A stretch of DNA of 64,000 bases. Source: Marsupella aquatica (Eukaryota > Plantae > Marchantiophyta). Of this stretch, positions 35,372 to 59,760 are shown piece after piece. A program made the translations under genes and the position numbers. The stretch spans positions 8,332,963 to 8,396,962 of the forward strand of contig OZ316893.1 of assembly GCA_973895155.1 (NCBI GenBank). The letters are read 5' to 3'. The notes beneath the pieces are model-generated. The model saw only the letters and a program-made list of their open reading frames with translations, was not told where the DNA came from and did not search any database. Numbering within the stretch: the stretch's first letter is position 1; each line of letters opens with the position of its first letter.

Positions 35372-38300
35372 ATGTTATCAATGGCATATTCAAAAAGATG
35401 TTTTGACCCTTGCCTTGATTCATGCCATCGTCTTGTAGTGAGGAATTCTGGGACAATTTGGGAGGCCAGATCGCTGCTGAGCTGCTCAGAAATGGGTGGT
35501 TCATTGAGGCAGCGATGCCTTCAGACTGGAGGAGAGATTTTGACATCGAAATATTACTCGTACATCGTCCGTGTCCTGATCTTGCTGGGGACTGCAACTT
35601 CGGTGGCCTTTTTGTTACTTGCATGGACCCAGCCATTTGATATCCAGTCCCTCGCTTTGCACTGGGATGGAAGTCCTTCTGTGGCGGTGACAGACCCACC
35701 CAACAACTGCGAAACTGAGAAGTCATCGAGGGAAGGCGTCTTACAACAACATGGAGTAGGGCTTCTGCATGCATGGACAGATTCAGAGCTCGTTGCGAGA
35801 GTAAGGACAAATGAGAAAATCCTGGCTCGGCAAACGAATTCCTCGTCCTTCAAGACGCCCAAGATTGCTTTTCTGTTTCTGATACAGGACGACCTCCCTT
35901 TTGAGCCCCTTTGGAATAGGTTCTTCAAGGGGCATGAGGATCAATTCAATATCTATATTCATATGTGGCCACTCAAACTGAGCGCCTTCCAAAGAAGCAA
36001 GGGAGTGTTTTGGGGACGATTGATACCGAGCCATGAAGGGAAAAAGTTGACACCAGGCCTCATTGCGAACGCTCGGAGGCTATTGGCGAATGCACTCCTT
36101 GATGATCCTAGTAATGAGTGGTTTGCCCTCATTTCAGGAAGTTGTATTCCTATCCATGGTTTTCGGCATGTTTACAACGCCCTGGCTTCTACCAACAAGT
36201 CTTTCGTGGTGAGTAACGAAATATTGAATTTCCTCTTCATTTAAACCCTTGACGTAATTGCTATCTCTCATCTCCATGCAGTTTAAAGGTCTGTCACTAC
36301 CTGTCACAAATCAGTAAGGTCATTTGTTTTGGTCTTTCCCCAGTTGAGAAATATACAGTGAAACTCGTGAGAGATCTAGTTTCAATTGAGGGAAAAGGCC
36401 CAGGTTTGCAAGCTGTTCTTTGTCAGCACTGAATTCGAAATTTCACTTTTCCTTCTCCGTTTGCATGATGTATTCACAATTTGCTATTAAAGTGTGGTCT
36501 AAAGCACTAAGAACATAGAGGTCGGTGCTGCCAGGAACTACACCTTGGTGAGAAATAGAACGTTCTTTCAACTGTGACGGTCATTCTTCTCGTTCTTACA
36601 TTTCCAGGCAGATTTGTGAACATCATGGATGTTAGAAAGTGAGCCCGAGTCGGTGTTTTGCTCGAATGAAACAGAATGCTTTGTTTATGTTTTGCACAAA
36701 CCTACGTCTTGTAATTGCTGTCCCATCCTTTAAATCTAGTTCTTCTCTTTGCCTTTCTGGTGCACTCGGAGCTCACCTGGAGGTGGCTAACATGGTTGTC
36801 GGGCTGAGGGAAAGCTCTGTGAAAAGCCCATCGTAATATTCTAGATCGATCTTTTATTACCTACCAAGGCACGAGGTACATGTTGGACTTCTGCATACTC
36901 GTTTTGAAAATACGTCTGGATTTTTGAAACCAGAAAAGCGTTTCCAGCCTATTAAATAAGGACTCAAGCACTCTTTGGAATCCCAGCCTTGAGCCTCCTT
37001 TCCCTCAACTTCCCGAAGCCAAGCTGGCTCGGAAGATTCGCAATCTTCACAAATTTTCTATTGAATTTTGATTGCAATCTACAAGAAAAGCAGATTGCTC
37101 GGGCGTACTGAATTCTATTTACTCACGTCTGAGAACCCTCGTAAGACTTGCCTCCCGCACACTTAACTCATCTCCAATTTTCGTGCCTCTTTTGGTGGGT
37201 CAGGAACCGGGACTCCTTTTGCCCTTTGCCTGCAGTAGATCGATTGTAAGTGCTCGTCTTCAGGGTGTTCTGATCTGTGAGCTGGGAGTAAAACCTTCTC
37301 TGTGCCCTATTGTGTGCTCATGTCACTAGGGTTTCAAATGCATATCCCGTACATTTGCCATTACTGGCTTGGATCTAGACTGCGTTCTTTCTCTCCATAT
37401 TAATCAGCTCCTAACTTCGGTTAAGGCAGACTCTGAGAGTAACTGAACGAACTTGTTCATGGTTTATGCGTTATAACGTTGGTCTGTCTAGTGGTAAAAC
37501 AGTACTCTTCATCGGTGAATTTCCGGGTTTACTTCAGTGCTCCATTATTGCACATTCCTGAATAATAGAGTTACTCAGGAACACAATTTGTCTTCTCTCG
37601 AATTCTTAAGAGGTTGAAGTAGTGCGATTACTGATTTCCTGCGGGACCCTAGGGCTGGATGACCTCATTGCAGTTACTATCCAAACGAGTCTCACACGGG
37701 AAGGGAAGACAATAGATGTGAAGTCAGAAATGTGAAGTAAAAGATTTTTGAGCTCCTTCCCACTTCCATATCCAGGCTATGATTGTGGAAGATATCATGA
37801 AAAGAGTGATTCGTTGCTATCAATCAGATCATGTACCTAATCAGACGTGCCTCTCTCTTTCTTCTACAACACTCGTTGCCGAAGGAAACCGAAGTCACTC
37901 AGGGAGGGAAGGTTGTCTCGTTGTTTAACCATGGAAATGTGGATGATGTTGAGTCAGTGGAGGTGTCTTGAGCACGTCCTGGCAACGGGCTGAGTGTGTT
38001 CTGAGTATTGCAGCCGGGTTGGGAGTCTGATGAGATTTTGTTTCATGTTCTACAGTGACTTGAGGTGTCTTGAGCGCGTCCTTGACTGGCTGAATGTGTT
38101 CTGAGTATTGCAGATGGGTGGAGAGTCCGATGGGATTTTGTTTCATGTGTTTGTGTGACTTAAGCTGTCTGGACCACATCCTGGCACACCGGATGAATGT
38201 TTTATTACTTCCGTAACTGGTCTGAAAAGATATTGGGGATGGCATTGTCATTTTGAATATAAGTCTTTGATGAAATTGGGCATGAGGGGATGTAGCTCAG

Positions 38301-40706
38301 ATGGTAGAGCGCTCGCTTAGCATGCGAGAGGTACGGGGATCGATACCCCGCATCTCCACACACAGAGAGGAGGAGAGACTACTCTTCTCCCAAAGTCAAT
38401 AGAAGCTAACTAAGTTTTACCTTTTCCCGGCATGATCCCCTCCATCGACGCCTTCTGTACCCACCTCTGGTCAAATGAACGTCAATAAAAGCTTTTTTCT
38501 GAGTGTTGCCCTTGCCCGGCATGATCCCCTCCAGCGACGCATTTTGTACCAGCTTCTGGTCAAATGATGGTGAAGCTGCTTTTCATCATTCTCTTGTCAG
38601 TTCTCTTGTACTGAAAAGGCAGAGCATCATTCCAAATTTCCAATCTATGGCTAGTGCTTTAATTAAAACAAGTGACCCTCCCGAATGTTTCGTTTATTTG
38701 TCTGCCGCCCAATCGAGTCTTTGTCCACGAAGCTTTGTCTGTTACGGCTTTGCAAGTAATTCTGTCGGCTTGAGAGGTAATGCAGGAGAAAATCGAAGAA
38801 GAAGATTCACTTGACCTAACACTTTCAGGCTTTTGTCGTTGTGAACACAGGACATAGGTCCCAGTCACTGGGACATGTGGAACAGGTACGTTGCTAGAGG
38901 GAACGACGTCATGAAACCTGAAATCCAATTTCAGCAATTCAGGGTTGGATCGCAGTTCTGGGTGATGCGCAGGAGACACGCTGTCCTGACCGTGGATGAC
39001 GTGAAATACTGGACAAAATTTAACAGACCCTGCGTCCCAGCACACCCCTACTGCTATCCGGAAGAGCACTACTTCGCGACCTTGATGTGAGTATTCCTTT
39101 CTCGTCACCCCCACGTTCAGAATTGTTTAGAGCATTGTTACTAAGTTCTCGGTCAGTCTATTCGGCTTGGATTATTTTTTCCCCTTGGAAATCGAGTTTC
39201 ATACACAGAAGGGGACAGACGGGAGCCCCACCAAGGTTGGATTGGTTTTTTTCGTTTTAGCATAGCCTTTTGCTCTGGCCCACTCTTGCCTTTCCCACCT
39301 TTTACTCCACCCCTAAACTTGCGTCCACCTACAGGAGGAGTCCTTGTGTAGAGTCTTCACTCTAGACAACATTCCAGGGTGTAGCTTTCGCCAATGTCTA
39401 GACTCGAGTCTGACATTGTTGATTATTCGTTATGCAAAGAAAAGGGAGACCCATCAGGGGATGGGATTGTTTTGTACTTTAGTCGTTTTGCTTAGGTCGT
39501 TTGACTAATATGATTCTAATTTAGTTAGAACCAAACGGGGAACCAATCACCACAACTGAAGAAAGAAAAAGCCCAGATAGATACACAAAGTTTTGATGAG
39601 GTGGATTGTTTTGTAATGTAGTCGTGTTGCTTAGGTCGTTCGACTAATATGATTTTAATTTAATTAGAACTAATCACCGCAAGTGTAGAAAGAAAAAGCG
39701 CAGATAGATATACAAAGGTTTGATGAGGTGCTCAGATGGATCATAGAATCCCAACGGCCACAAACTAAACAGTATAGAATCCCAACGGCCACAAACTAAA
39801 CAGTATATTATACTTTTATAACACTATATGTAGTTTGAGTACATACTTTTACACTCAGAGTACTTTGTTAGTGTGTTGTGCTTTGAGTGATCCACCGTAG
39901 TCTGGGGTATCAACCTTAGTGTCTAAGAAGGCTTTCGCTAGACAAATGGAAGTAATTGAGTCATAAGCTGGGACAACACCTCCATCCAAATCCTTGATAA
40001 CATCCAAGAGGGCCTCCATCCACACCTTTGAATTTTAGACAGTAATCCAAATTTTGCCCTTTGCGTGTTAATAAGCATTTTCTACTCTAAAATCACGTAG
40101 TGCAAATTTAAATGTACATTCATACAAGATCTCATGCAAACGTCAGAATCTTATCTTGCTAAGAGGGTGAATTGCAAATTGTCCATGCAAACTTAAAAAT
40201 CCTATCCCACTGTAGGTCTCATGCAAATATCAGCATTTGAAACCTTTTGCTGTGAATGGTTTTACTGGGATAGCATTTTAAGTTAGCATGGGATCGATGA
40301 ACTCCGCCCCTCCTTGCTAGAATAAGATTGCTACCCACACGACTCATAAATCGTATGAGCTCAAAAGCTTTGAAAGATCAAATCTGGGCTGAGAGTTCCA
40401 TTTCTTAGACCGATTTCATTTTATGTGGAGCTGCTTCTCGCCAACCCTCACTAACTCGATCTTCCACTGGGATTCGCACGCAGGAATATCTTGGACCCAG
40501 CTGGGATGTACCACTCGGCCACTCTAGTGGACTGGTCGCGTGGTGTGAATGGCCACCCAACGCAATGGCAGGCCAAAGAAATCAGTCTGCACTTCATCAG
40601 AGAGTTGCAACATAGAGAGCGAGGGGAACTTCTGTTTGCAAGGAAGTTCCACCGAGACTGTTTGAATCGGTTGTCCGACATCGCCGATGCAATTTGGAAG
40701 GATTGA
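35372..40706 (+). CDS. Core-2/I-branching beta-1,6-N-acetylglucosaminyltransferase family (GT14-like, DUF266/BC10-like) glycosyltransferase
   Basis: Exons 35372-36208 (TM helix, PKIAFLFL, LPFEPLWNRFF, FNIYIH, ARRLLANALLDDPSNEWFALISGSCIP), 38851-39086 (FRVGSQFW, CYPEEHYFATL), 40484-40706 (TLVDWS, GHP, LFARKF). Splice phases are consistent; start could be 35372 or a nearby Met. Confidence 0.93.
37960..38200. repeat. ~101-bp tandem repeat (2 copies plus a partial) in GT intron 1
   Basis: gaggtgtcttgagc.cgtcct...ggctga.tgtgttctgagtattgcag...gattttgtttcatgt...gtgactt repeated. Confidence 0.8.
38286..38358 (+). tRNA. trnA-AGC: tRNA-Ala(AGC), intronic
   Basis: GGGGATGTAGCTCAGATGGTAGAGCGCTCGCTTAGCATGCGAGAGGTACGGGGATCGATACCCCGCATCTCCA: 73 nt, full cloverleaf, G3:U70 alanine identity pair, anticodon AGC. 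Confidence 0.97.
39467..39805. repeat. Local duplications in GT intron 2
   Basis: A ~130-bp imperfect pair (39467-39603 / 39607-39730) and atagaatcccaacggccacaaactaaacagt x2. Confidence 0.8.
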
Positions 40707-40973
40707 TCATGAACAAATATTGGACCTCTCTCCTTTCTGGAAAGGTAGCTAGCTCTGATTGAACTCTTTCGAGTGATGGCGATCGTCAATCTCGAGCTGT
40801 CGGAGTGCCCCGGCTCGACGATCGACTCCTAGTTTGGGACAGGACAGAACGGTTATTGGAAGCAACAGAATGCATGGGGCGATCAATTGCAACAATTGGA
40901 AGAAAGTGAAGAACTCGAGAAGGGAACACTGCTCCGGACTAAACATCACAAATTGAATGAGTCTGCTTTACTG

Positions 40974-41889: not shown

Positions 41890-42088
41890 GTGGGATCTGT
41901 GGCTGGGCAGAAAATTGGCTAATGGAATATTAGATATTTAGCCATGTTTTTGCCAAAGTTGCTAAGACTTGTGAGTAAGGTCTAGCCAATTTAAATTGGC
42001 TAATGGAATATTAGATGTTTAGCCATGTTTTTGCCAAAGTTGCTAAGACTTGTGAGTAAGGTCTAGCCAATTTTTGCCACAGATCTAC
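41890..42088. mobile_element. Possible MITE with an internal ~81-bp tandem duplication
   Basis: gatctgtggc...gccacagatc inverted ends with TA on both flanks; interior aaattggctaatggaatattag...gtctagccaattt x2. Confidence 0.45.
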
Positions 42089-43381: not shown

Positions 43382-43580
43382 TGACAGACCCGGAAGCAGA
43401 GTAGGAAACAGACAGTTTTTGTTTATCGGTCTGCCTATGGCATTGTGTCTCACGCTTTAGCGCCTTTTGACTGGGCATTGACAGACCCGGAAGCAGTGTA
43501 GGAAACAGACAGAGTTTTTGTTTATCGGTCTTCTGCCTATGGCATTGTGCCTCACGCTTTAGCGCCTTTCGATTGGGCAT
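43382..43580. repeat. ~97-bp tandem duplication
   Basis: tgacagacccggaagcag.gtaggaaacagacag...ctcacgctttagcgccttt.ga.tgggcat x2. Confidence 0.9.
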
Positions 43581-44386
43581 ATATTGTGAAATATAAAACA
43601 GACATAGATACTTAGATTCTTCTTCGTTTCACCGAACCAGCATCCGACATTAAGGCATGATGTACTTTTTCATCGACCATCTTGACCGTCTTTATGTTGC
43701 ACTGACAATTGTGGGTTTGCGTCTGCCTCACATGCTCATCTATCTCACCACGGTATTACCTACTGCAGAGTGGGACATTCCCTCGGCAGATTCCTTCCGT
43801 CCCAGACCAAGTGTTCGTTCAATCTCATTCTAAATTTCTCGGATTTTCATCAGTTCAAAGCTGCACTGATCTTAAACGGACAATTACCACTTTGTAACGT
43901 TCTTTCGAACACTCCCAGATCAAGTTTGAGTTCAACATCAATCTTACAGTTTCTTCATTTCAAATTTTCAATCGTCTACAATCGATCAGACGGAGTAACC
44001 CCTCAACCAAATGAATCCGAATCGAAGGATTGATGCACAGAACAACTTACTCCGCCCCTATGTTACATTCATTCATTCAATCAGTCATTTAGCCAGTATC
44101 TGCAATAGACCATTCCGCATCGCTTCCCAATCCCAACAACTACTACTTCGGATTTAGTCACAGAAGTCTCTCAGGTTTGCAACAATGTCTAAGATTATTG
44201 CAGTCATGGGAGCCACTGGTATCCAAGGTGGATCCGTAGTCAATAGCTTCCTCAACCAAGGTGAGTACAAGGTCAGAGGCATCACCAGGAATGTCCACAT
44301 TGACAAAGCCAAAGCTCTTGAGCAGTGCTAAAGGGGTCGAGATGGTCAGAGATGGTCAGAGCAGATTTGGATGACCAGACGTCCCT

Positions 44387-45913
44387 ATCACCCTATTCAT
44401 TAAAAGTGTATTTTATTTTGTTTACTTTTAGGCTTCCAAATGTACACTTTTAAACCCCAAAAGATATACTATAGTACAATACTCTACACCTAAATAGTCA
44501 ATTGTAAACTTTAGGGGAAAAAAATGATCTTTACTAGAAGGAGTCTCATTCTAGTTCATTTATAAAAGATGAACATGGTGGTATGTCTGATGGCCATCAT
44601 TTTTATTTCTTGCCCAAATGTACACTTTTTCCTTGGAATCGTAGCCATTTTATAAATTTTAGTCCCCCTGCGAAAAGCCCCACGGGGAGGGCGCACAAAC
44701 AGAACATATTCCCGAGAGACAACCCAGACAAAACAGAGGACCAAACCACAAAAGATTCATTCTCTTCCTAATTCGGCCATTATGGACATTGCAACGATCT
44801 GTGGCCGTCTGGGAATGAGATCGATTGGTGATGGTTGGTCGGCGAAGGAAGGATGTTGGAAGGACCTCCCACTTAGATGGAGCAATATGCGTGGCTTCTC
44901 TGCGGAGCATCGATTGCTTGCACGGAAGTTCTTGGAAAGTATATGGAGCGCTTCACACTGCCAGTCAGAGTACTTCCTGTATGTCAAACAGTGGAGGTGG
45001 ACAGATAGACCTGAACCATTGAAGGATTTCAGAATTGAGAATTGCAGAGTGTATGACTTCCTGAGGCCCAAGACCTCAAATCACGAACGTCTGAATAGGA
45101 TCTGGTCTCTTACCCAAGAGGAGAGAGGTTGGAATGAGAGCTGGTACAGACTGTGGAGATCGGATTTACCAACTAGAGGCAAGACCTTTATTTGGAGGAT
45201 CATAGTGGGGGGCTTGTTCACTGGGGCCCGTGCGCTTCGATTAGAGGTGAGCAACGGTGACTGTAAGTTGTGCAACGGATGGCTGGAAACCATCCCTCAC
45301 CTTTTTTTCCATTGTGCACATGTTGTCTGCTGCTGGCGTATCTGTTTGACCTCTTTGAGTGCGTTGGATATGCCAATTGAACAAGGGCTGATGGCCCTTT
45401 TAGATGCTGCCTGTGGGAGTGGCGCAACTTTTTGTCTTGCACCAGATTCTCTGGAGGCTCTGGATTGGGAGAAACACTCACATGTTTCAGACGGGGGGGA
45501 GACGGGTGTTTGACTTGGGACTTGTCCTGTCGGAGGCAATGGAGAACTTATTTGCTGCTGGTCGGCATTGCCCCCCAGGGAGGAAGTGCACGCGCCTGCT
45601 ACGGGCCAAATCATGTATTGATGGGCTTCGCAAGAGCTGGCTTGGCGGTGGGGGGACCAGTTTCACTTCCGTTGGTTGACTCTGATTTTGCTGTGAGGTT
45701 GGAACATTGAGACCGTTGAATGTAGATGGTTCTGGGGAATGGATGCCCTCTAGATGGTTATTAGGTTGTGTGGTCGTCCTCTTTTGCTGTTAGGTGTCGC
45801 CGGGGAGATTATTTCCCTGCCAAATGTACACTTTTTGAAAGCCAAATGTACACTTTTTATTGCCCAAATGTTCACAAATTGAATAATAATTCACTTTTAA
45901 TGAATAGATTGAT
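44387..45913. mobile_element. TIR DNA element inserted in NmrA-like copy A
   Basis: Ends atcaccctattcattaaaagtg / cacttttaatgaatagattgat (20/22 inverted match); ccct duplicated on both sides, single in intact copy B; internal repeats ccaaatgtacactttt. Confidence 0.85.
44782..45810 (+). mobile_element. LINE (non-LTR retrotransposon) ORF2 3' fragment with zf-RVT zinc-binding domain
   Basis: ORF 44782-45513: WYRLWRSDLPTRGKTFIWRI..GGLFTG..A....CKLC....ETIPHLFFHC..V..CW, the plant L1-type zf-RVT motif; decays into frameshifted and 3' UTR sequence. Confidence 0.85.
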
Positions 45914-47110
45914 CCCTCATCAAAGCGTTTGAAGGCGTCACCACAATCTTTGCATTGACGGACTTCTTCGACACCTTTCGCAATGACGGTGTGGATGCCC
46001 ATGCCACCATGGACAAGGAATACCAGCAAGGCGTCAGACTGGCCAACGCAGCCCTGCATACGCCAACACTGAAGCACTACGTCTGGAGCACATTCCCCAA
46101 CTCAGGGAAGGTCTCGGGTGGCAAATTTGTTGTCCCACAATTCGACGGGAAAGCTAAGGTCAATGAATTCATTAAATTGAAGCCTGAGCTTCTTGCCAAA
46201 ATGACCTTCCTGTGGGTCACCGCCTACGCAAGCAACTTCTTCGCTCTGGCCTTGAGACCACACCACCTCAAGTCGATCAGCACCTACATTTTTATCCAAC
46301 CCGTCGCACCATCGACGCCCATAGTACTTGCGGGTGATGTTATAGTCAACGTCGGCGTCATCGTGAAAGCCATCGTCTCCAATCCATCGAGGACATTGGA
46401 CGGCAAGTACGTCATCCTTAAAGTGGGGACCATTTTGAATGGGGACATCTATAGCTCTGGGGCAAGGTCACGGGCAAAAAGGTCCACTACCTGCAAGTTT
46501 CCTTCGAGGAGTATGACAAGTTGTTCCCAAAATATGGCGCATTGGTAGGCGTCAATATGCAGTACCACGAGTATGCCGGGGAGAAGGCTTGGTTTGGTGA
46601 CGAGGAGCTGGTCACACCTGCTGATTTAGGTGTGCAGCCCGGAGAGTTGGTCACCGAAGAGAGGGCTTTTGAGATGACAGATTGGAGTGCTCTTTATTAA
46701 CAACGTCAGCGGGCAACTGAGTGACTTGATGTTACTCAGCCAGTATGGTAGTTTAAGGCAATCTTTGCGCGATTGAATGGGAGCGCTTTTGATTGAATTG
46801 AAACGTCAAGCGATTGAGGAGTTGAACATTTGTCATTGTTGGTAAATTTCCTCAGACAGTAGACTACCAATTTAGTGCAAGCTTCGAGCAATTGAATACC
46901 AAATTATTCTCAGCTTGCAAGTTCAGTGTAGTTGCGTTCAGGAGATTGCAATTGAGGCTGCGATGAGTTGGCGGTCCAGTGCCAAGATAGGGGATAGGGA
47001 TGGTCACAATATGAGATTGGTAAGCACTCCGGATGGACAGTGTGCATGTCACTGCTCGGATGTTGAAACAGTGACAAGATTCCAGATTCATGCTCAAAGC
47101 ACTCCCTTGC

Positions 47111-47662
47111 CCGTCAAACTTGCCCCAAAACTCCGACAAAATGACAACCCGGCACCCGAGTTTGGGAGCAGTTTGGGCCAGGACAAGTTCAGGAGAGGTT
47201 CGGGCTGGGTTCAGGCCGGGTCCGGGCTGAGTTCGGGAAAGGTCCGGGCCGGGGTCGGGGGGCGGTTCGGGGGAGCCGGTCCGGGTGTGGGGGGGAGCCG
47301 GGTTCGGGAAAGGTCCGAGAAGTGTCCAGGAGAATCCGAGAATTGTTCGGGGGGGTCCGGGGGGAGGTCGGGAAGGGTCCGGCCCGAGTTTGGGAGAGGT
47401 CCGGGCCAGGGTTGGGGGGAGGCGGAGCTGGTCCGGGGGGTTTGGGGGAGCCGGTCCGGGTTGGGGGGCGGAGCCGGGTTCGGGGGAGCCGGGTTGGGGG
47501 GAGCCAGTTCGGGAGAGGTCCGGGAAGTGTCCGGGGGAGTCCGGGAATTGTCCCGGGGGGTCCGGGGGGAGTTCAGGAAGGGTCCGGGGGGTTCCGGGGA
47601 AGTTCGGGAGAATCTCAACGAATATGTGTCAAACTTCCGGTTTTGGGGCCATCATTTGACGG
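47111..47662. repeat. G-rich degenerate minisatellite bracketed by inverted repeats
   Basis: Repeated gttcggg/gtccggg/ggggagccgg units at about 47185-47610; ccgtcaaacttgccccaaaac (about 47112) is inverted relative to gttttggggccatcatttgacgg (about 47640-47662). Confidence 0.8.
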
Positions 47663-50600
47663 TTTTACGTGCCCAGCAAGGCGTCAAGTTGCCCGTCAGG
47701 TTAAACCGGGCATACAAGGCTCTGCCCATATCCACTCCCTTTCAAAATCAGGGTTGGTGGCTGCTGTAGTTTGTGTACCATTGTTAACTACACTGTCCAC
47801 CTCAATTAGTGTTAGTCACACTAATTGCATGGCCTCAAAGTTTGGAGTGTCACATAAAATAGTGAGTTACATTCATTTTTGTGTCACTCACACTAACTAG
47901 TATGAGTTAGATTAATTTTGGTGTCATTTGAATTGCAGTTCACATGTACTCACACTGAATGTAGTGCTGAAATAGTGTCAGTTAGATTAATTTTGGTGTC
48001 ACTTGAATTGCAGTTCACATGTAGTCACACTGATTGTAGTGCTCTGGTCACAACCAAATGTCAAGGGCAATTGAGGATCACAACGCAGAACAGAGGGCAT
48101 AAAACTGAGTCAGTGGCATTCAATAGGAGACTGACCATGTTTTGGATGGTGATGGGCTTGGCTCTGGGGTTTAGTCTCCAAGGGAGAGCATTAAAGAACC
48201 GAGGAATGTGGGCCTAGATCCCCAAAGCTTGAAGAAGAAGCAGGCTTTCAATATAAAATAAATCTCGTGAACATCAGAGTTTCAAACAAGTGAACATAAA
48301 CACAGTAAACATCAATCTCTATGACCAATTGAATTTAAGCCATTATCAAACTTGCTTTGACAACATCATAATCATGTTGTCTGCCTGTCACTTGAATGTG
48401 GGTAGAGCAAAAAATTGAGGCTCATAGACTGAAAAACAAGAGCAGATTGTGATCTCTACTCCAGTCTGCTCTGCTCACTTCTATCTAAACTCTGCTCTGG
48501 CTCTGCTGGATTGGTGTGTCCTGATAAAAATTGTGTGAGTCCTGATAAAAATAAATTGTACACAAATTAGTGCGAGTCACACTAATTGCGATACACTGTG
48601 TACATAGACTTTTACTACTAAATGTGTGATGCTCATGTGTTTGATGCATCCCCACAGCTTATACAGTCACTAAGTCTAATGAAATTTTACATAATCAAGT
48701 TTTGGTTGATTGGTTGTGTTCTCGATGTACACTTGTCAATTTTACAATCTACACAGGAAAAGCTTTTGGTCTCAATCCTGAACTTCAAGGTGTTCTGAGA
48801 CGTGGGTCTGTCTTTTGACATGTTGCTTTCATTTGTCCACTCCAACTAATCTTTTGGATTGGGACTCAATCTCAAATTGAAACATGACTACCACTGAACC
48901 CCCTGGGCCCCCATTCTTAGGTTATACGAGTCGGACTTGAGAATGATTCAAGGGTCATTTTTATTCATAATTAAGGATCAAGGTAGTTTTTAGAAATCAG
49001 TTACAACTACACAACCTGCATTTATGGTAAACATGACATGTAAGTAATGTGGTGTATTGAATATTTGGTCGGGATTAGATTTATGGAAGGGAGCCCTAAT
49101 ATGTAGTGGGACATTTGTCATCATCTTAGTGAGCCATGTGTCAACATGTAGTTGCTATAGTGCTGCCAAATATGCATGTATAGAAGATATTCATCTTCTT
49201 GTCAAGGTGCAAAATAGATATATATTGATAGATGTTCTTCTTTCTCAAAGAGTACAAAATGCAGCAAATTTGACTCCAAGCATTCTGTTTGATGAGATAT
49301 GTGAATTTTTTCTTTGACTTGAAGAAAAATGTAACTAATGAGGCATAATTATAATCCTTCAAATTGACATTTTATAATTGTCTCAAGGATCATTCTCAAT
49401 CACTTTTGAATGTAACAAGAATATTTTATTGATCAAAAAATAATAACAAGGGGTACTAGGTGGTGTTCGTTCTTAAGGGGTTACAGATATTTTACTAGGA
49501 GTCGGGGCCATAGGCCAATACTTGTCCCTGCTTGGAAATGATAAAGGAGAAACACTCCAGGACACTATGACAACAATTTTTCTCCTTTCATAGCCACTTC
49601 TTGTCATACGATGGGATTTAATAGGAGTTACTTATTAAATCATGTAGAATTGCCCCATTACAATTTCCGTTAATACTTCTCCTATTTTGCTCTCCATTTT
49701 CTCCTCTAGCATCCCTGAACACTCCTTGAATCATTAAAACTTGGCATTGTTGAATTGCCCCGGTCACTCATCAAATTCAAGAATCAGATTCTATTAATAT
49801 CAGACTGGCTTTGATTCAACTCAACTCACCCCATTTGCCTGGTTCGAAATTTGTGAGCTTTAAAGTTAAATCCAACTTGATACAATTCCATTCCATTCTG
49901 GACCACTTGGCTCGACTTAGTTGGTTATTCATTTAAACCATCACTGGCCATATTATAAAATGTGGAGTAATTAAAATGGTGAAATCTTTGTAACCACCTT
50001 TTTGTCTTGGCTAGTGGAGGTCTAAACATTACTGTCCTTTGTCCCAATTTTCAAGTTGGAAATCCATCAACTTTCAACTTTGGTACAAAAAAACTGACTC
50101 GCTCATTTGTTCAACCTCACCGTCCCCTTTCCCCAATTGTCTAAGTGACTGTCTCCAAGATTAAAACCTTATTTTGAGCTGTAGTCACTCCGTTCTCAAT
50201 GCAATGCCTAGGATTTCAAAGTGCCAGACATTGCTTGAAAACTCTAATCCAAACCCTGTTCTCCAACAATTCCAGGATCAAACTTAAACGAGCTACTTTT
50301 GGGTGGTTACAGAATTATGGTTTCATTAGTTGATTAAACACTCATAAATGTTTTACATTTTGGAATAATTATCTTTACTGATTTTTCTGAAATTACAAAC
50401 GTAAATAAAACAGTTACTGATGAAACATTTTCTAGCCTTGTAAACTTCCCCTTATATATAGCCAGTGGTGGTTTAATTGGTTTAATAGACCAGAAATTTT
50501 ATGTGTTGTCTTTTTGGCCTATTGCACCAGTGGGTGCTGTTTTTGCTTGCCTCGGCTTGCTGGTTCCCAGTGGGGTTCATGGGGAATAAAAATTTTAATA

Positions 50601-51280
50601 TTCCATAAATAAATAAAAAGTAAACTAAATACCCATTCTTTGAATATTAATGGGAATGATGACCCAATCACTTTACATTTCCAAATTTTGGTGGGGCCCT
50701 AGAGTCACCATCTAGAGTCTCACAAATGTAGCTTTTGTCTGCTATTTAATAGTAAGATAAACAGACCAGAAGCTACTCTCGAAGCACCACAAGGATCGAC
50801 AATAAACTTTTTATAAGGGGGAACCTTGGGCACTTCTACATACTTACATCAACACGCCAGTGGTGGTTTATTACACAGACCAGAAGCTACACTCGAAGCA
50901 CCCCAAAAGCTACACTCGAAGCACCCCAAGACAGGACACGGAATTAATGATCTCCTGCCTGCATGTGCCTATGGGATCGTGCCCCCACGTTTGGCGCAGA
51001 TAGAGAGTTAGATTCTACTTCGTTTCGCTAACCCAGCGCACAACAGGAATGCATGATGCACTTTCTCTATTTCGTCGATCATCGTTTGGTTGTACTGACA
51101 ACTGTCGATTTGCGTCCGCCTCAGAAGCTCAGCTATCTCACCACGGTATTACCTACAAGCATTCCCTCAACTGATCCCTGGCAGATCAACTGTTTATTTA
51201 ATTTTATACTCAATTCTCAGACTTTCATCAGATCAAAGCTCCAAATCTTAAGGACAGTCCTTCTAGCTGGAAAGCTCTAC

Positions 51281-51288
51281 ATATAAAG
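51281..51288 (+). promoter_or_regulatory. Putative TATA box of NmrA-like copy B
   Basis: atataaag inside the upstream block conserved among the three copies (ctatagaa in copy C, degenerate in copy A). Confidence 0.4.
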
Positions 51289-51589
51289 CACTCCCAGATC
51301 AGGTGTAAGTTCAACATCAATCTTACAGTCTCTTCATTTCAAATTTTCAATCGCCTACTATCATACGGAGTGGTTCTTCAATCAGGTGAATCCGAATCGA
51401 AGGATTGATGTAGAGAACAACTTAACACACGTCTGCGTTACATTCATTCATTCAAACATTCAAACATGCATCCAATCAATCAGTCATTTAGCCGATATCT
51501 GCAATAAACCATTAGTACGCATATCTTACCAATTCCAGCAACTTTAATTTCGGTTTGGCTAGTCACAAGAGTCCCTCAGGTTTGCAACA

Positions 51590-52561
51590 ATGTCTAAGAT
51601 TATCGCAGTCATCGGAGCCACTGGTATCCAAGGTGGATCTGTCGTCAATAGCTTCCTCAAGCAAGGTGAGTACAAGGTCAGAGGCATCACCCGGAATGTC
51701 CACAGTGACAAAGCCAAAGCTCTCAGTGCCAAAGGCGTCGAGATGGTCACAGCAGATCTGGATGACGAGACGTCCCTCATCAAAGCATTTGAGGGCGTCA
51801 CCACAATCTTCGCATTGACGGACTTCTTCGACACCTTTCGCAACGACGATGTGGATGCCTATGCCGCCATGGACAAGGAGTACCAGCAAGGCGTCAGACT
51901 GGCCAACGCAGCCCTGCAGACGCCGACATTGGAGCACTACGTCTGGAGCACGCTCCCCAACTCAGGGAAGTTCTCCGATGGCAAATTCGCCGTCCCGCAC
52001 TTCGACGGAAAAGCTAAGGTAGATGAGTACATCAAATCCAAGCCAGATCTTCTCGCCAAAACGACCTTCCTGTGGATCGCCTTCTACGCGAGCAATTTCT
52101 TCTACCCGCTCATGAGCCCACACCACCTCAAGTCGATCGGCACCTACGTTTGTATCCAACCCGTCGCACCATCGACGCCCATGGTACTTGCCGGTGATGT
52201 TACTGTCAACGTCGGCGTTATCGTGAAAGCCATCGTCTCCGATCCATCGAGAACGTTGGGTGGCAAGTTCGTCATCCTCAAAGTGGGGACCATGTCGAAC
52301 GGGGAACATCTGCAGCTCTGGGGCAAGGTCACGGGCAAAAAGGTCCACTACCTGCAAGTTTCTTTTGAGGAATACGACAAGTTGTTCCCGAAATGGGGCA
52401 AGGAGGCAGGCATCAATATGCAGTACTACGAGTATGCCGGGGAGAAGGCTTGGTCTGGTGATGAGGAACCCCTCACTCCTGCTGATTTAGGCATTCAGCC
52501 CGGAGAGTTGGTCACCCAAGAGAAGGCCTTTGAGACGATAGATTGGACTGCTCTTTATTGA
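51590..52561 (+). CDS. NmrA-like (NMRAL1/HSCARG-type) atypical SDR, NAD(P)-binding Rossmann protein, copy B (intact, 323 aa, intronless CDS)
   Basis: N-terminal IAVIGATGIQGGSV, VRGITRN, GVEMVTADLDD, LEHYVWSTLP, VPHFDGKAKVDEYI; His replaces the classical SDR Tyr, as in NmrA-like proteins. Confidence 0.95.
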   Translation: MSKIIAVIGATGIQGGSVVNSFLKQGEYKVRGITRNVHSDKAKALSAKGVEMVTADLDDETSLIKAFEGVTTIFALTDFFDTFRNDDVDAYAAMDKEYQQGVRLANAALQTPTLEHYVWSTLPNSGKFSDGKFAVPHFDGKAKVDEYIKSKPDLLAKTTFLWIAFYASNFFYPLMSPHHLKSIGTYVCIQPVAPSTPMVLAGDVTVNVGVIVKAIVSDPSRTLGGKFVILKVGTMSNGEHLQLWGKVTGKKVHYLQVSFEEYDKLFPKWGKEAGINMQYYEYAGEKAWSGDEEPLTPADLGIQPGELVTQEKAFETIDWTALY

Positions 52562-55500
52562 CAACGCGACGGGCAACTGAGTGACTTGAAGTTACTCAGA
52601 CAGTATGGAAGTCTGAGGCAAAGTATGAGCGATTGAATGGGAGCGCTGACGTCGGGCAACCGATTAATTCATCATTTGTCATTCATTTGTTTGTAAATTT
52701 CCTCAGACAGTAGAATGCCGATTCAGTGTAAGCCAAATTTTCAAGCGATTGAATAGCAAATAATGCGCAAGCTTGAAAGTTCAGTTGAATTGCCTTCAGA
52801 AGACACGAGTGTTTGGCAGACCTGCAATTGAGGCGACGAGTCGTCAGTTTTCTGCCAAGATAGGTGATAGGGGTAGTCACAACATGAGATTGGTAAGTAT
52901 GAGAGCAAAACCTGGATAATATGACGAAGTATTAGTTTACTCGTTGGTGCGTTACTCCAGATGGACAGTGCAAAATTTCCCTGCTGAAATGTTGAAACAG
53001 TGAAAGGATTTCAGATTCATTTTGGCAGGATACATGACATGTTATGGATGAACTGCCTCCAGAGGATAATGCCATCTCAAGTCGTCCGTATCTGTTCATG
53101 CTTTCTATATGTTCAATTCGCCAAATTAAGGCATGCTACATAATTTTACTCTACTATCTTTGAGTGGCAATCTATCACGAGTCTGAGTATCATGATGATC
53201 TCCTTTGTTTTGATCTTTCGTAGGCATTTGGTTGACTCTTTGGCAAACAGTCAAGGTCAATCTTTGGGGTTGAATCTCTTAAACAAGACTTCGATGTCTA
53301 AAGGAATGTGCTAATGTAGTGTTGAAACCCCGTGTCGAACACATTGTGCCCGCGGCAGCAATTCAATGTGCTGGAAATCTATTTTGTTGTTGCTGGGGAT
53401 CCTTAAATTGGGTATTATCTTACCAAAGAAGACAAAGCATCAAACCCGCAGAGAGGATCCATGGTGACCAAAGAGCCAAAATGCCCACGAGTCCCCCACA
53501 ACTGCAAAAGAGCAAATGCCCTATTAAGTACCAAATGAGAAGTCTTGTAGATGAGAGACACCTGAATATATGGCCCCGGTCTTCGTAAAGCAGACTGCAA
53601 TCATTTTCACTCATCTTATGGCTTCATAGAAACAATGGGTTTGTCTAAACAATGAAGCTGAGTGATCGTCGTGCCGGATCCGGGCTTCCGAGGTATGATC
53701 GATAGTATGCCGTTCATGATCTACTATCATTGGCACAACCAGCCGACATATATATCTCCTCAAACTTACTGATGTTGACGTTCGTGAGGGTCTTAAAGAA
53801 TCAGGCATGGCTTGCGTAGGACCAAACCGTTCATGCACCTGAAAGTCCGGGCTTACCCAGCTCCGACCGGGCTCCGACCCTCTAATAAATACTCAGAGGG
53901 GCCAAAATACTCACGACTCGTAATAGCCGCAAGTTGCACGCAATAAGAGATGACAACTGACACTCGAACCAATCCCACTCTTCTTCATCACTTGACGAAG
54001 AACTCTGGATCGTAATCATGATCCGTAGTCATGCCAACGCCTGCCAAAATAATTACTTACAGTGTTAATCAAAAGTATAACTTACATTCGGGCATTTAGT
54101 TGCTCCAGAAAATTCTCACCCCAACATTGGAGTGACAACATTAAACACAAGGACCTGATTTCAACATATTGACATTTAATGTTGAGTCTTCGGATGGCAG
54201 GCTAGGACCAGAAGCCCAGAACAGTGTGGACTCGACTTTAAATTGATGGTGGTGCTACAGTTGTTGCGGATGAGGATAGTGAGGGGGACAAAGAGTATGG
54301 AAAGACGATATCATCCAGTGGAGCTTTCCTGCCAGTCTAACCCAATTGAGTAGACCGCTGGCAGACTCAATTGAAGATGAGAAATGGTGACCAGAACAGA
54401 GAATCAATGGAAAATGGCAGAACTGTGCGATAATAGATCAACTTAACGCAGAGGGCTCATTCACACTGAATAATTCCAACATTACATCTGCGCCAACGCA
54501 CAAGGGGAAGTTCAGCTATGATAGATATACATAGACTATGTTGACACAGTTCCAGTATAATATGACACCGAAAGAGAATGAAAGGAAAAGTCATGAAATG
54601 GATAAGATTCCATATCGCTAAAATGGATCAAAGTTACAACTGGAGCAAGGATTCGGTTGAAGGGAAAGCATAGGAAATTAGCTGAATAAAGGACAACATA
54701 ACTGAAGACATGTGCGGGACATTTAAATTGATATGAAGCGTTAAATGAATCTGGACTAGATTTCATCTCAGTATTGGATGCGTGAGAAAACGAGAGCTTG
54801 ATCCAACCTGTTGACTTCAGAGCAATCAATGAGGTTCGATCAATACCATGATTGATTTCCAATCCTTTAACTCTTGTATCAAATCGACACTTATCTCGAG
54901 TGATGTCCACCCCAGAGAACATTAATTTCGCAAGACCAGTGAAAAAAGCTCGCTCACGTGAGACTAAAATCCATCGATCACACGCATAAACTTACTAAGA
55001 TTTTCAAAGTCGCGAGGATGCTCATACCAAGGAGTGACAGACAGTATCTACAAGGTCAGAGAATTTTGCGGATCCAAAGCTAAGAGATTTACGTGCTTCC
55101 TGTTCAAGATCATTCGCTGGGGTGATCCTCCCTTTCTTTTGCTCTCCTCCCTCCTTGAACGCACAATTTTTGCCTCTGGTCCCTACTTGCAATTAGCAAT
55201 GTCATTTGTCTGACTATCCTTTTTATGTCCAATCCTCGGTCCAATCTTTGGCTCTCACCATAATCTGCATGGTCAACAGTTTTGCAAGAACACTTTCACT
55301 CCAACAACATTGTGCAACTACATGATGGCCGCAACAATAACACCCACAATGACAAGTACACAAGAATGGCACCAACAATAACACCCACAATGACAACTAG
55401 TACACATGAATGTGAAACTCTGCAACGCCAAGGTGAGGCTTCCTTGTATATACAACACTTCTTTTCCTTGCGGCACCTACACTTCTTTGTCCTGAGCACA

Positions 55501-56677
55501 TAAATCTCTTTGGCATCCCTTGAGTATTGAAGTTGTTAGTGTTTATAAAATGGATTTCCAAACAATTTACCCCCAAAAGTTTTCTTACTAAAGGCAACAT
55601 CTCGGGGCACCCACAAGTATTGAACGTGGTTATCTCTTTTCTTTTCTTTTAAAAGGGGAAATTTGTGAAACCCCACTCCTTCTGCACTAGTTAAGTAGTC
55701 ATGTTTGGCTCCTTCCTTGTGAAGTCTGCTTCTCTCCTGGCACTGGCCTCCCTGATTCTCTGGGCTGTTGACCTTTGCTTCCCCCTGTGCCTACCCCTTT
55801 TGTGGACCACCTTTGTTGGTATGCTGGCTTTTTTAATGAAATTCATTGAGTATTTTGGAAAGGAAAAATATATTAAAAAATGTGAAAACCCCACAGGGCA
55901 CATAGTCAATCACAACGTTGAACCCAAAACCTATCAATAGCTCTCCCAGCCATGCCTATGTGAGAACTTGTTTATCTTTATAAAGATAAGTTACAAATAA
56001 CTCTCCCCCCACTCCCCCATGAAAATGGTTTCATATTGGTATAACGAATCGACAAGTGGCACTACTTTATTTCCTTTCCAAATTGATGAGAAGTCTTTGG
56101 CTTCGGTCTTCACCTGGTTTCACCATTAATAACATTTTTTTCTTCAAATCGTGTACGAGATTAGCAGAGTCCAGTTAGGGACACAGGTGGGTTCGCGTCT
56201 GCCTCGGATGCTCATCCATGCATATGATGCTCATCCACTTACCCTACTGCAGCTTGGGAAATTCCCCCGGAAATTTCCTCAGCAGACTCCTCCCGTCCCA
56301 GACCAAGTGTTCGTTCAATTTCTCAATTTCTGACTTTCGTTACTTAAAAGCTCCACTGATCTTCAACGGACAGTCTGTGCCACTTTCTAAAGCTCTATAG
56401 AACACTTCCAGATCAAGTGCAAGCTAGTTCAACATCAATTTTACAGTTCCTTCATTTCAAATTTTCAATCGTCTGCAATCATACGGAGTAGTCCCTCAAT
56501 CAGGTGAATCTGAATCGAAGGATTGATGTAGAGAACAAGTTAATACAGGTCGACGTTACATTCATTCAAGTAATCAGTCTTTCAGCCAATATCTGCAATA
56601 GAACATTCCGCATCGCTTCCCAATCCCAGCAACTTCGATTCCGGTTTCAGTCACACGAGTCTCTCAGGTTTGCACCA

Positions 56678-57647
56678 ATGTCTAAGATTATCGCAGTCGT
56701 CGGAGCCACAGGTGCTCAAGGTGCATCTGTCGTCAATAGCTTCCTCAAGCAAGGTGAGTACAAGGTCAGAGGCATCACCCGGAATGTACACAGTGACAAA
56801 GCCAAAGCTCTCAGTGCCAAAGGCGTCGAGATGGTCAAAGCAGATCTGGATGACGAGGCGTCCCTCGTCAAAGCCTTTCACGGTCACCACAATCTTCGCA
56901 TTGACGGACTTCTTCGACACCTTCGTCAAGGACGGTGTCGATGCCCAAGCCGCCATGGACAAGGAGTACCAGCAAGGCGTCAGGCTGGCCAACGCAGCCC
57001 TGCAGACGCCGACATTGGAGCACTACGTCTGGAGCACGCTCCCCAACTCAGGGAAGTTCTCCGGTGGCAAATTCGCTGTCCCGCACTTCGACGGAAAAGC
57101 TAAGGTCGATGCATTCATCAAATCCAAGCCCGAGCTTCTCGCCAAAACGACCTTCCTCTGGGTCGGCTTCTACGCGAGCAATTTCTTCTACCCGACTTTG
57201 AGCCCACACCACTTCAAGTCGATCGGCACCTACGTTTGTATCCAGCCCGTCGCACCATCGACGCCCATGGTACTTGGCGGTGATGTTACTGTCAACGTCG
57301 GCGTCATCGTGAAAACCATCGTCTCCAATCCATCAAGAACATTAGGCGGCAAGTTCGTCATCCTCAAAGTGGGGACCATGTCGAATGGAGAACTTCTGCA
57401 GCTCTGGGGCAAGGTCACGGGCAAAAGGGTCCACTACCTGCAAGTTTCTTTTGAGGAATACGACAAGTTGTTCCCGAAATGGGGCGAGGAGACAGGCATC
57501 AATATGCAGTACTACGAGTATGCCGGGGAGAAGGCTTGGTCTGGTGATGAGGAACCCCTCACTCCTGCTGATTTAGGCATTCAGCCCGGAGAGTTGGTCA
57601 CCCAAGAGAAGGCCTTTGAGACGATAGATTGGACTGCTCTTTATTGA
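56678..57647 (+). pseudogene. NmrA-like family gene, copy C (single 2-bp frameshift, otherwise intact)
   Basis: ATG at 56678; gcctttcacggtcacc (about 56873-56888) versus gcatttgagggcgtcacc in copy B is a 2-nt deletion; the rest is colinear to TGA 57647. Confidence 0.88.
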
Positions 57648-59448
57648 CAACGTCGACGGGCAACTGAGTGACTTGATGTTAATCAGACATTGTGGCAGTT
57701 TAAGGCCAATCTCTGAGCGATTGATTGGGAGCGCTCTTGATTTAAAACGTCAAGCCATTGATGAATTCATCAATCATGCAATTCATCTGTAAATTTCCTC
57801 AAGACAGGAATGCAGTGGGAGCCAAATCCTCGAGCGATTGAATACCATATTATGCGCAAGCTTGAAAGTTCAGTTGAATTTTCCTCACGACAGTAGAATG
57901 CCGATTCAGTGTGAGTCAAATCTTCGAGCGATTGAATACCATATTATCCGCAAGCTTGAAAGTTCAGTTGAATTGCGTTCAGAAGGTACGAGTGCTTGGC
58001 AGACCTGCGATTGGCGCTGAGTCGTCGGCCCACTGCAAAGATTGGTGATGGGAGTATTCACAGCATGAGATTCGTAAGTGACAAGAGGGAAACCTGGATA
58101 TTGTGACGAAAACTTCACTTTACTGCTTTCGAAACAGTGAAACGAGTCCAGGCTCAGTTGGAAGCATATTTGACATCTTGTGACAGGAAATTGGATCTCT
58201 GACTTTATCTACGGCTGTTGTTTTCGTTTACTTTTGTGTTAAGCTTCTCAGTTTCGCTTACACAGTAAATGTCATGCAAGGTTTACGTGTCTTGAATTTC
58301 AGACCGCGCCCCTCGTCCTAGCTGTGTGCTGGACAGGACTGTCCCTGGCCTTTATGTACCCTTCGGGAGAAAAACTGGAATACACTTTGTGTAAATACAG
58401 TCACAATTATCTTTCAACCAATTTCGTTCATGCGCACACTGTCTGTTTGTGTTTTACTATGTGTTCTCGTTCTTAAGCATCACACATGTTTGTCGATGAA
58501 CTGCCTCCAGACGATAGTTCCATCTAAATTCGTCCCATGTTTTCATCCATTCGACATGTTCAATTCACCAAAGGCATGCTACATAATTGTACTCTACTAT
58601 CTTTGAGTGGCAATCTATCACGAGGCTGAGTATCGTTACAATCTCATTCGCATTGATCTGTGGTAGGCATTTACTTGACATTTACTTGACTGTTTGGCAG
58701 CAGTCAAGTTCAATCTTGGGGTTGAATTTCTTAAACAGGACTTGGTTTTCTAAGGGAATGTTCTTTTTGCCTTGAACACTACGCCTGCTGCAGCAATTGA
58801 TTGTGCTGGAATCTATTTTGTTTTGGCTTGGGGATCATTAGATTGCTTTTAAGCAGACGCTTTGTGACCAGTTGCACATTCTGGTCTGAGATAATGAGGG
58901 TGGGTATTGAATTTTATGACTCTGTTTTATTTAAGTATGTGAATATAAATTCACAAAGTGTGACTATGGAAAGGTAATGGATGCCACGTCCGGAGTGGTG
59001 TCAACTTTAAAATTTCATTGAACGTGGTGTCTGTGTAAGCTGTGGGAATGATAAGGATATGCAACTAGCTTAAACCCATTAAAAGGTCAAGCATGATCAT
59101 TTGCGATCTTATGAGAAAATGACCATATAAAAACCTTCCATACTCCTCTTTGCATAAAGGTTTCCAGATATAGTCGACTAATACACTGGAGTATGATAAT
59201 TGGCCTCCAATGAGTCATAAGGTATGCCCATATCCACTACGTTTCAAAAACACTCCTTAGAAGGAAAGTGTGGATAGAGATTCAATAATAAACTGTAGAC
59301 AGTTAGTAAGAATAATAAGCTTAGATTTCACTCTAGAGAGTAATCCCGCCAGAATCATCCTTAGTCTGTTTACAAACTCAAGAAAACTGGAAACCAATCA
59401 TAGCCCTTCAGTAGAAAATAGGTTTTCTGGAACCCTTAGATCCATCCT

Positions 59449-59760
59449 TGTCAGGAGTCACTTGACGCCTGTTCTTTTCCATCGGCTGACTGCTATCACA
59501 TCAGAGTTTGTTTAGTACAGCTAGCACATCAGAGTTTAGTTTGGCGGGATGTTCTCCTGCTCTGACTCCTGATTTGATCTTAGCATGATCCTTCAGTTGC
59601 AGCGCCTTGTTCCACGCCTTGTTCCACCGCTGGCCTCTTGCTGGCCAAGTGGTGGTTTGTTTTACTGCCTCTCCTTCGGGGTACTATATGATATTGTTTC
59701 CCCTCTTTGTTGAGGCAGGGATTGTTCATTCTTTTCTGTGTCACCAGATTGCATGTCATA
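59449..59760 (+). mobile_element. Solo LTR of the same copia family as 13221-15513
   Basis: Reverse-complement homologue of those LTRs; starts tgtcaggagtcac, ends gcatgtcata; 5-bp TSD atcct (59444-59448, 59761-59765). Confidence 0.88.

What the first reader, a model, noticed from the sequence alone, without database searches (positions are those of the whole stretch)
44185..57647. Tandem array of fungal-looking NmrA-like genes in a plant genome: candidate fungus-to-plant horizontal transfer with local amplification
Seen: three colinear copies with intronless, C/G-ending-codon-rich CDSs, sitting among intron-rich plant genes and plant-type transposons on the same contig. Recalled knowledge: the motif string TPTLEHYVWSTLP...GK..VPHFDGK..VDEYI.S.P.LLAKTTFLW..FYASNF resembles ascomycete NmrA/HSCARG-like proteins, which often sit in secondary-metabolite clusters. 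It does not resemble plant isoflavone-reductase-like SDRs. Inference: an acquired redox-sensor or tailoring enzyme undergoing birth-and-death evolution.
Basis: partly seen in the sequence, partly recalled or inferred. Interest (0 to 1): 0.8.

Follow-up and report, generated by a model that had tools for sequence, protein, structure and literature searches.

The report
Fungal NmrA-like gene in leafy liverworts
A likely leafy-liverwort genome carries three side-by-side copies (one intact, two broken) of an enzyme-like gene that groups inside sac fungi, is shared with the liverwort Calypogeia, likely at the same chromosomal place, and is predicted to reduce small reactive molecules with NADPH: probably one more old fungal gift to bryophytes.

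Summary
Confirmed: three tandem, intronless NmrA/HSCARG-like copies. Only copy 2 (51590-52561, 323 aa) is intact. Copy 1 has frameshifts, a stop and a 1.5-kb high-copy transposon; copy 3 has a 2-nt deletion. It is not a contaminant: contigs of four runs cover the array at host-like depth. Of 58 organism-named top hits, 57 are fungi; the best is the liverwort Calypogeia fissa (65%), which has four NCBI copies 20-26 protein accessions from its orthologues of the neighbouring glycosyltransferase. A rooted ML tree nests this clade (100/100) in an ascomycete-dominated subfamily. Placement outside all fungi is rejected (AU p=5e-8); placement sister to the subfamily only marginally (p=0.048). dN/dS against Calypogeia is 0.24 at dS about 0.95. 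So the transfer is likely old and single, not local; the amplification is local and turning over. Function is untested; a stand-alone NADPH-dependent reductase is my best guess (about 55%). A secondary-metabolite-cluster origin was not seen at 9 fungal loci. Fungus-to-liverwort transfer is a known kind; I found no report of this family but could not read the main published list.

The parts
44185..44386 (+). Copy 1, 5' part (codons 1 to about 63), pseudogene: 4-nt and 10-nt insertions
44387..45913 (.). 1527-bp terminal-inverted-repeat element (ATCA...TGAT, 22-bp TIR, 20/22 match; 4-bp target duplication CCCT at 44383-44386 and 45914-45917) inserted into copy 1; very high copy number in the host genome
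   Evidence: summed depth 334-33,881 in the three bins that cover it against 6-10 in X1/X2 neighbouring unique bins
44782..45513 (+). zf-RVT (LINE-type 3' end) fragment nested inside the TIR element
   Evidence: Pfam PF13966 E=1.8e-11
45914..46700 (+). Copy 1, 3' part, pseudogene: 1-nt deletion near codon 239 and a premature stop just after it
51590..52561 (+). Copy 2: intact intronless 323-aa NmrA/HSCARG-like atypical SDR (G9xxG12xxG15, R35, H137xxxK141)
56678..57647 (+). Copy 3: 93% DNA identity to copy 2 in the longest repeat blocks, 2-nt deletion at codon 69; a contig of run X4 carries an in-frame version, so the break is likely polymorphic
   Evidence: table 4
43604..44184 (+). Conserved upstream region of the duplicated unit (matches 51000-51589 and in part 56187-56677); likely promoter and 5' UTR
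   Evidence: self-BLAST
35492..40710 (+). Host anchor gene: intron-bearing Core-2/I-branching glycosyltransferase, best named hit Calypogeia fissa 71%; 3' end read from the sequence by eye

Best explanation
This is a tandem array of an NmrA/HSCARG-like short-chain dehydrogenase gene that nests among fungal genes, was likely transferred once from an ascomycete into an ancestor shared with the leafy liverwort Calypogeia, and is predicted to act as a stand-alone NADPH-dependent reductase of small reactive or aromatic metabolites. Shown: three copies, one intact; host integration; nesting in fungi; purifying selection; the fold and cofactor motifs. Inferred: a single transfer at this locus (accession adjacency, about 0.85); an intronless donor or a spliced-mRNA route, since fungal relatives occur both with introns near codons 68 and 181 and without; local duplication, with copy 1 dead and copy 3 dying. 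Predicted mechanism: NADP(H) binds the Rossmann domain (GxxGxxG, Arg35), the invariant Lys141 assists hydride transfer, and variable segments (81-100, 161-180, 261-280) set the substrate, for detoxification or tailoring of the liverwort's own or its microbes' metabolites. Fungal origin about 0.9; enzyme rather than sensor about 0.6 of that.
For: Origin: 57 of 58 organism-named hits among the best 120 of 626 are fungi, and the 58th and best is C. fissa. The liverwort clade has 100/100 support inside a fungal subfamily at 100/98, with nested nodes at 97/92 and 96/90. Placement outside opisthokonts and outside all fungi is rejected, p=5.5e-47 and 5.5e-8. Bacterial and animal homologues are 33-39% identical and the 15 listed plasmid hits 28-32%. 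Integration: a high-copy host transposon sits inside copy 1. X2 contigs with 0 differences run from flank into each copy, and in X3 the GT last exon (30.1) and the copy 1 3' piece (36.1) have like depth. Shared locus: C. fissa NmrA accessions CAM6086138/140/144 and CAM6092190 lie on the same two scaffolds as GT orthologues CAM6086164 and CAM6092214. dS of the two C. fissa copies is 0.056, matching its reported WGD peak of 0.05. Selection: dN/dS 0.24, CI 0.17-0.33. Enzyme reading: K141 is invariant in 81 of 81 aligned homologues; 11 of 58 named fungal subfamily members keep Tyr in the YxxxK position; R35 is kept in 11 of 11 clade members. Solved NmrA-like biosynthetic proteins KstA11 and CtdP are close folds. 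Fusarium NmrA-like genes are strongly induced by a plant xenobiotic (PMC10512309, passages; not shown to be this subfamily). Tandem turnover fits metabolic enzymes (inference).
Against: No activity, substrate or expression was measured. The nearest solved fold is the NADPH sensor HSCARG (TM 0.79-0.81), and the window protein has its HxxxK rather than YxxxK. The tree that makes the liverwort clade sister to the whole fungal subfamily is only marginally rejected (p=0.048), and the donor class is unresolved (90/90, unstarred, with unnamed rows and Fonsecaea). Six unnamed Logan proteins in the clade (P0001, P0002, P0004-P0007) are assumed to be liverworts. Synteny rests on accession order; no DNA match to the GT or YrdC genes was found within 10 kb of two C. 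fissa copies. No listed contig spans GT to array. No PKS, NRPS or terpene-synthase neighbour at 0 of 9 fungal loci. The 54 tree rows were my choice and hold no native plant NmrA-like protein, as none was retrieved.
Confidence: 0.55

Rival explanations
1. Same fungal transfer, but the protein works like HSCARG or NmrA: a non-catalytic NADP(H)/NADPH sensor that changes shape and binds a partner protein, tuning redox or nitrogen responses.
For: Best structural and PDB sequence match is HSCARG. His replaces the catalytic Tyr in 10 of 11 clade members, as in 10 of 10 animal NMRAL1. A Fusarium NmrA/HSCARG-like gene is read as an NADPH sensor by its authors (PMC12028961, passages).
Against: True NmrA is more distant (E=5e-11, 21-22% identity). 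A sensor needs partners that would not travel with a single gene (inference). Repeated tandem gain and loss in two liverworts is unusual for a dosage-sensitive regulator (inference).
Confidence: 0.3
2. The gene is old in eukaryotes, was inherited vertically and was lost in most plants; or it moved from liverworts to fungi.
For: Published reanalysis keeps only 29.3% of claimed interkingdom transfers into plants (PMC12711439, abstract). The sister-to-subfamily placement is rejected only at p=0.048. Both protein searches list only their best 120.
Against: Placement outside opisthokonts or outside fungi is firmly rejected. No other named plant appears in 120 + 120 listed hits, although Marchantia, Riccia, ferns and lycophytes are in the database. 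Fungal members are far more diverse than the plant clade.
Confidence: 0.05
3. The gene was once useful but is now dispensable here; the array is decaying.
For: Two of three copies are broken. dN/dS between recent copies is higher: 0.45 (0.26-0.81) for copy 2 vs 3, and 0.59 (0.31-1.39) between the C. fissa homoeologues.
Against: Copy 2 is intact with all motifs. C. fissa keeps four full-length copies. Long-term dN/dS is 0.24. An in-frame version of copy 3 exists in run X4.
Confidence: 0.08
4. The array is fungal contamination misassembled into a plant contig.
For: Fungal-type protein with higher GC3; leafy liverworts host ascomycetes; no single listed contig links it to the GT exon.
Against: A host high-copy transposon interrupts copy 1. 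Depth matches host DNA in runs of two studies. An independent long-read liverwort assembly has four intronless copies on 25- and 47-Mb scaffolds near the same GT.
Confidence: 0.02

Closest known systems
Fungus-derived genes of liverworts: RDS1, YANB, EUPF, fruit-body lectin FBT (PMC12513842, section 8 read)
   Same: Fungal gene fixed in a liverwort lineage, intron-poor, metabolic or defence flavour.
   Different: Different family. NmrA is not named in that paper's main text (0 occurrences). Its list of 1,809 families could not be read, so this family may already be in it.
Ascomycete 'hscarg dehydrogenase' / NmrA-like subfamily (e.g. Oidiodendron maius KIN00437, Cadophora, Pseudogymnoascus, Fonsecaea, Lipomyces)
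   Same: 44-53% identity over most of the length, same motifs, one clade at 100/98.
   Different: In a plant genome, tandemly amplified; several fungal loci carry introns that the plant copies lack. No member of this subfamily with a tested function was found.
Human HSCARG / NMRAL1 (PDB 2wm3, 2exx)
   Same: Same fold (TM 0.79-0.81), GxxGxxG, TR motif Arg, HFDGK.
   Different: 26-27% identity by structure; separate branch of the tree; sensor role not tested here.
NmrA-like biosynthetic proteins KstA11 (5f5l) and CtdP (7uf8)
   Same: Same fold and family (E about 1e-19 by sequence).
   Different: 26-27% identity; no matching cluster around the plant gene.
Plant IFR / PCBER / PLR / eugenol synthase atypical SDRs
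   Same: Same superfamily fold; a catalytic Lys without Tyr (recalled).
   Different: Only 14-21% identity by structure; best sequence E=2.6e-4 over 70 residues.

Membership tests
NmrA-like atypical SDR (PF05368) | Pfam match above the curated cut-off over most of the model | tested here: met
   175 bits vs cut-off 27, model positions 1-259 of 298
NmrA-like atypical SDR (PF05368) | Rossmann fold with GxxGxxG and a C-terminal subdomain | tested here: met
   AF2 model pLDDT 93.5; TM 0.79-0.81 to HSCARG
NmrA-like atypical SDR (PF05368) | Binds NAD(P)(H) | not testable with these tools
   Motifs only (G9/G12/G15, R35)
Classical or extended SDR | Catalytic YxxxK | tested here: not met
   H137xxxK141; no Tyr in 11 of 11 clade members. 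The motif definition is recalled.
True NmrA (AreA-binding nitrogen repressor) | Orthology to Aspergillus NmrA | tested here: inconclusive
   Much weaker match than HSCARG (E=5e-11; 21-22%), but NmrA itself was not a row of the tree
Plant IFR/PCBER family | Closest relatives are plant IFR-like reductases | tested here: not met
   0 named among 120 top hits; 14-21% identity by structure
Fungus-to-plant horizontal transfer | Supported nesting inside the donor lineage | tested here: met
   nesting within the subfamily itself only p=0.048
Fungus-to-plant horizontal transfer | Physical integration in the host genome | tested here: met
   Host transposon inside copy 1, host-like depth, flank-bridging contigs; copies on C. 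fissa megabase scaffolds. No single spanning read.
Fungus-to-plant horizontal transfer | Absence from the recipient's wider relatives | tested here: inconclusive
   No other named plant in two top-120 lists; the rest of 626 and 2374 hits were not shown, and bryophyte genomes could not be searched directly
Fungus-to-plant horizontal transfer | Function after transfer (selection or expression) | tested here: met
   dN/dS 0.24, CI 0.17-0.33; expression not shown
Secondary-metabolite cluster gene | Backbone enzyme (PKS, NRPS, terpene synthase) nearby | tested here: not met
   0 of 9 fungal loci and 0 of 2 C. fissa loci in a scan of 68 selected ORFs; none seen in the 11 window ORFs scanned. Flanks were short.

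The most novel reading that the evidence does not exclude
The gene was taken from an ascomycete of the kind that lives inside leafy-liverwort rhizoids, and the plant now uses it at that interface, reducing fungal or soil phenolic electrophiles or tuning redox during ericoid-type symbiosis: a symbiont-derived enzyme serving the symbiosis. Testable at once in the existing C. fissa plus Hyaloscypha RNA-seq.
Probability: 0.12. Interest if true: 0.7.

Novelty: new member of a known kind. Interest (0 to 1): 0.38.

Why it matters
It adds a well-anchored case of fungus-to-plant gene transfer: strong nesting, a second genome with likely conserved position, purifying selection, and copies caught at three stages of turnover. 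That matters because many such claims fail on reanalysis. The gene is also present in Calypogeia fissa, which can be grown axenically with its fungal symbiont and has public RNA-seq, so what an uncharacterised fungal enzyme family does in a plant can be asked directly. It is not a new kind of system: fungal genes in liverworts are already well documented.

Tried and rejected
No whole genome is held for the window. No RNA holder was listed among 6 runs: no evidence either way on expression. Prokaryote genome scan with the protein: 111 pattern matches, 0 confirmed; this finds close relatives only. DNA synteny within 10 kb of two C. fissa copies: no match to window flanks; the many short tblastx hits were sum-statistics noise and vanished. 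NCBIfam: no family reached its cut-off. An ericoid-fungus donor (Oidiodendron, Cadophora, Pseudogymnoascus give the best identities among named fungi) was considered, but these are not sister to the clade in either tree; donor class left open. Higher summed depth over copies 2 and 3 in X3/X4 was not taken as extra copies, since the copies cross-map at 90%. Literature: NmrA + liverwort + horizontal gene transfer gave 1 paper, on VEP1 by its title; NmrA + bryophyte gave 4, none on this transfer by title and abstract start; one search listed 25 of 200, none on it. NmrA terms were absent from the supplements searched for PMC12513842 (1 file), PMC11906373 (3 of 4 files) and PMC12711439 (1 file). 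The HSCARG review PMC7497778 is not held. No complex prediction was run.
Full report
1. What is there. The 323-aa ORF at 51590-52561 matches Pfam NmrA at E=2.7e-51. It finds three copies in the window, all on +. Copy 1 (44185-46700) carries 4-nt and 10-nt insertions, a 1527-bp element at 44387-45913 with 22-bp terminal inverted repeats and a CCCT target duplication, a 1-nt deletion and a stop. The element holds a zf-RVT fragment. Copy 3 (56678-57647) has a 2-nt deletion at codon 69. Upstream and downstream DNA is duplicated with the gene. dS is 0.10 for copy 2 vs 3 and 0.21-0.28 for copy 2 vs 1, so copy 1 split first. GC3 is 0.68 against 0.53-0.58 for four host exon stretches.

2. Host. The upstream Core-2/I-branching glycosyltransferase has Calypogeia fissa as best named hit at 71%, against 37-43% for Marchantia and Riccia. 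The host is therefore likely a leafy liverwort (inference; that C. fissa is one is stated in bioRxiv 10.1101/2025.04.01.646537, part 1 of 4 read).

3. Integration. Six runs hold the stretch, four with a share of 0.72 or more, from two studies and two organism labels; the best may be the source sample. Laid on 40380-59700, all four cover 30 of 30 bins. X2 contigs with no differences run 42566-44414 (flank, copy 1, into the element), 49812-51666 (into copy 2) and 55822-56754 (into copy 3). X2 depth over copy 2 is 5.6-6.7, and its listed long pieces have 6-15. In X3 the GT last-exon contig has depth 30.1 and the copy 1 3' contig 36.1. The bins over the element reach 334-33,881, so a high-copy host repeat sits inside copy 1. 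No listed piece spans the whole stretch. One X4 contig has two letters more at the copy 3 break, restoring frame; X2 and X3 cover the place without it. The break is therefore likely real and polymorphic (one contig only).

4. Relatives. The best 120 of 626 hits hold 58 with an organism name: C. fissa (65%) and 57 fungi (at most 53%; 50 ascomycetes and 7 Armillaria relatives, by my knowledge of the names). Six unnamed Logan proteins at 64-78%, on 1.4-2.9-kb contigs, rank with C. fissa; their origin is unknown. One unnamed cluster proved to include Oidiodendron maius, another hit Fonsecaea. The index-free search gave nothing above 327 bits among 50% representatives (no names). The ESM Atlas's top three clusters are 100% eukaryotic, mostly Ascomycota. 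A profile of distant relatives returned chytrid, mortierellalean, basidiomycete, animal and bacterial members and no named plant in its best 120 of 2374.

5. Shared locus. C. fissa has four NCBI copies: CAM6086138, 140 and 144 on a 46.8-Mb scaffold and CAM6092190 on a 25.0-Mb scaffold; the two fetched are intronless. Its two GT orthologues are CAM6086164 and CAM6092214, on the same two scaffolds, 20-26 accessions away. With 38,150 genes reported, a window of 26 either side is about 0.14% of the genes. The two scaffolds are likely homoeologous: dS 0.056 against a reported WGD peak of 0.05, so they count as one observation. Accession order as gene order is an assumption, and the GT is not within 10 kb of either fetched copy.

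6. Trees. A 128-row quick tree put window copies, C. fissa and the Logan rows in one clade, SH-aLRT 99. A 54-row careful tree (rows chosen by me: 8 clade, 6 unnamed near, 25 named subfamily fungi, 15 outgroups; rooted on two bacteria) gives the clade 100/100, inside nodes at 96/90, 97/92, 100/98 and 99/97 whose named members are otherwise all fungi. AU tests: clade outside animals plus fungi, p=5.5e-47; outside all fungi, p=5.5e-8; sister to the whole subfamily, p=0.048, marginal. The sister group is unresolved (90/90 with unnamed rows and Fonsecaea). Window and C. fissa copies form separate subclades, so each array arose after the split. dN/dS against C. fissa is 0.24 (0.17-0.33) at dS about 0.95 (Nei-Gojobori).

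7. Mechanism. The model (pLDDT 93.5) is closest to HSCARG, then KstA11, CtdP and NmrA; plant IFR-type reductases are 14-21% identical. G9/G12/G15 and K141 are invariant in 81 of 81 aligned homologues, R35 in 80 of 81; position 137 is His in 10 of 11 clade members and Tyr in 11 of 58 named fungal members. Among 7 clade members, segments 81-100, 161-180, 221-240 and 261-280 vary most; that some of these line the substrate pocket is recalled, not tested. Of 9 metagenome loci of relatives whose neighbours I scanned (57 selected ORFs; of 80 loci fetched), none showed a PKS, NRPS or terpene synthase; several had fungal-type neighbours such as Fungal_trans and FTA2. Several such loci show breaks near codons 68 and 181, read as introns; others have none. 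Papers give both readings: NmrA-like genes induced by the xenobiotic BOA (PMC10512309, passages), of uncertain membership in a naphthalenone cluster (PMC9239057, passages), or read as an NADPH sensor (PMC12028961, passages). Substrates of atypical SDRs cannot be predicted in silico (PMC5540887, passages). None was shown to be this subfamily. I commit to a stand-alone reductase because a lone transferred gene needs no partner to be useful and tandem turnover suits metabolic enzymes; both are inference.

8. Known or new. Bryophytes take microbial genes often, and fungal RDS1, YANB, EUPF and FBT are named for liverworts (PMC12513842, passages and section 8). NmrA does not occur in that main text, in the C. 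fissa preprint or in the supplements I could search, and three searches found no report. The spreadsheet of PMC12513842 was too large to read and bioRxiv supplements are closed, so prior listing cannot be excluded. Caution on such claims: PMC12711439 (abstract). The scan held no note on this sequence or place; it has other fungal transfers in mosses.

9. Verdict. Real, old, likely single fungus-to-leafy-liverwort transfer with local birth-and-death amplification; new member of a known kind; interest 0.38.

Noticed in passing
window 44387-45913: High-copy element with ATCA...TGAT ends, 22-bp TIRs and a 4-bp target duplication, carrying a nested LINE-type zf-RVT fragment; joints that skip about 1.2-1.4 kb suggest shorter forms without the nested piece. 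Superfamily not assigned.
   Followed up: partly
window 38286-38359: tRNA-Ala(AGC) on + inside the long first intron of the glycosyltransferase gene.
   Followed up: no
window 47150-47650: G-rich degenerate repeat with long open frames on both strands and raised depth; likely part of another repeat element.
   Followed up: no
window about 4000-6100 and 18570-21600: A glutamine-synthetase-like exon (recognised from recalled motifs; no Pfam hit) and a GDSL lipase gene.
   Followed up: no
tree, rows P0054 and P0033/P0066: Armillaria-group basidiomycetes and Lipomyces yeasts sit inside an otherwise filamentous-ascomycete subfamily, and a rotifer (P0493, long branch) among early-diverging fungi: this family may have moved sideways more than once.
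   Followed up: no
window 13242-13488, 14933-15121 and about 59500-59760: Dispersed copies of a short repeat, the last in inverted orientation.
   Followed up: no
L002 12772-18778: In C. fissa the single copy on the 25-Mb scaffold lies 1.8 kb from an ABC transporter gene, a pairing that would suit a detoxification role; not seen in the window.
   Followed up: no
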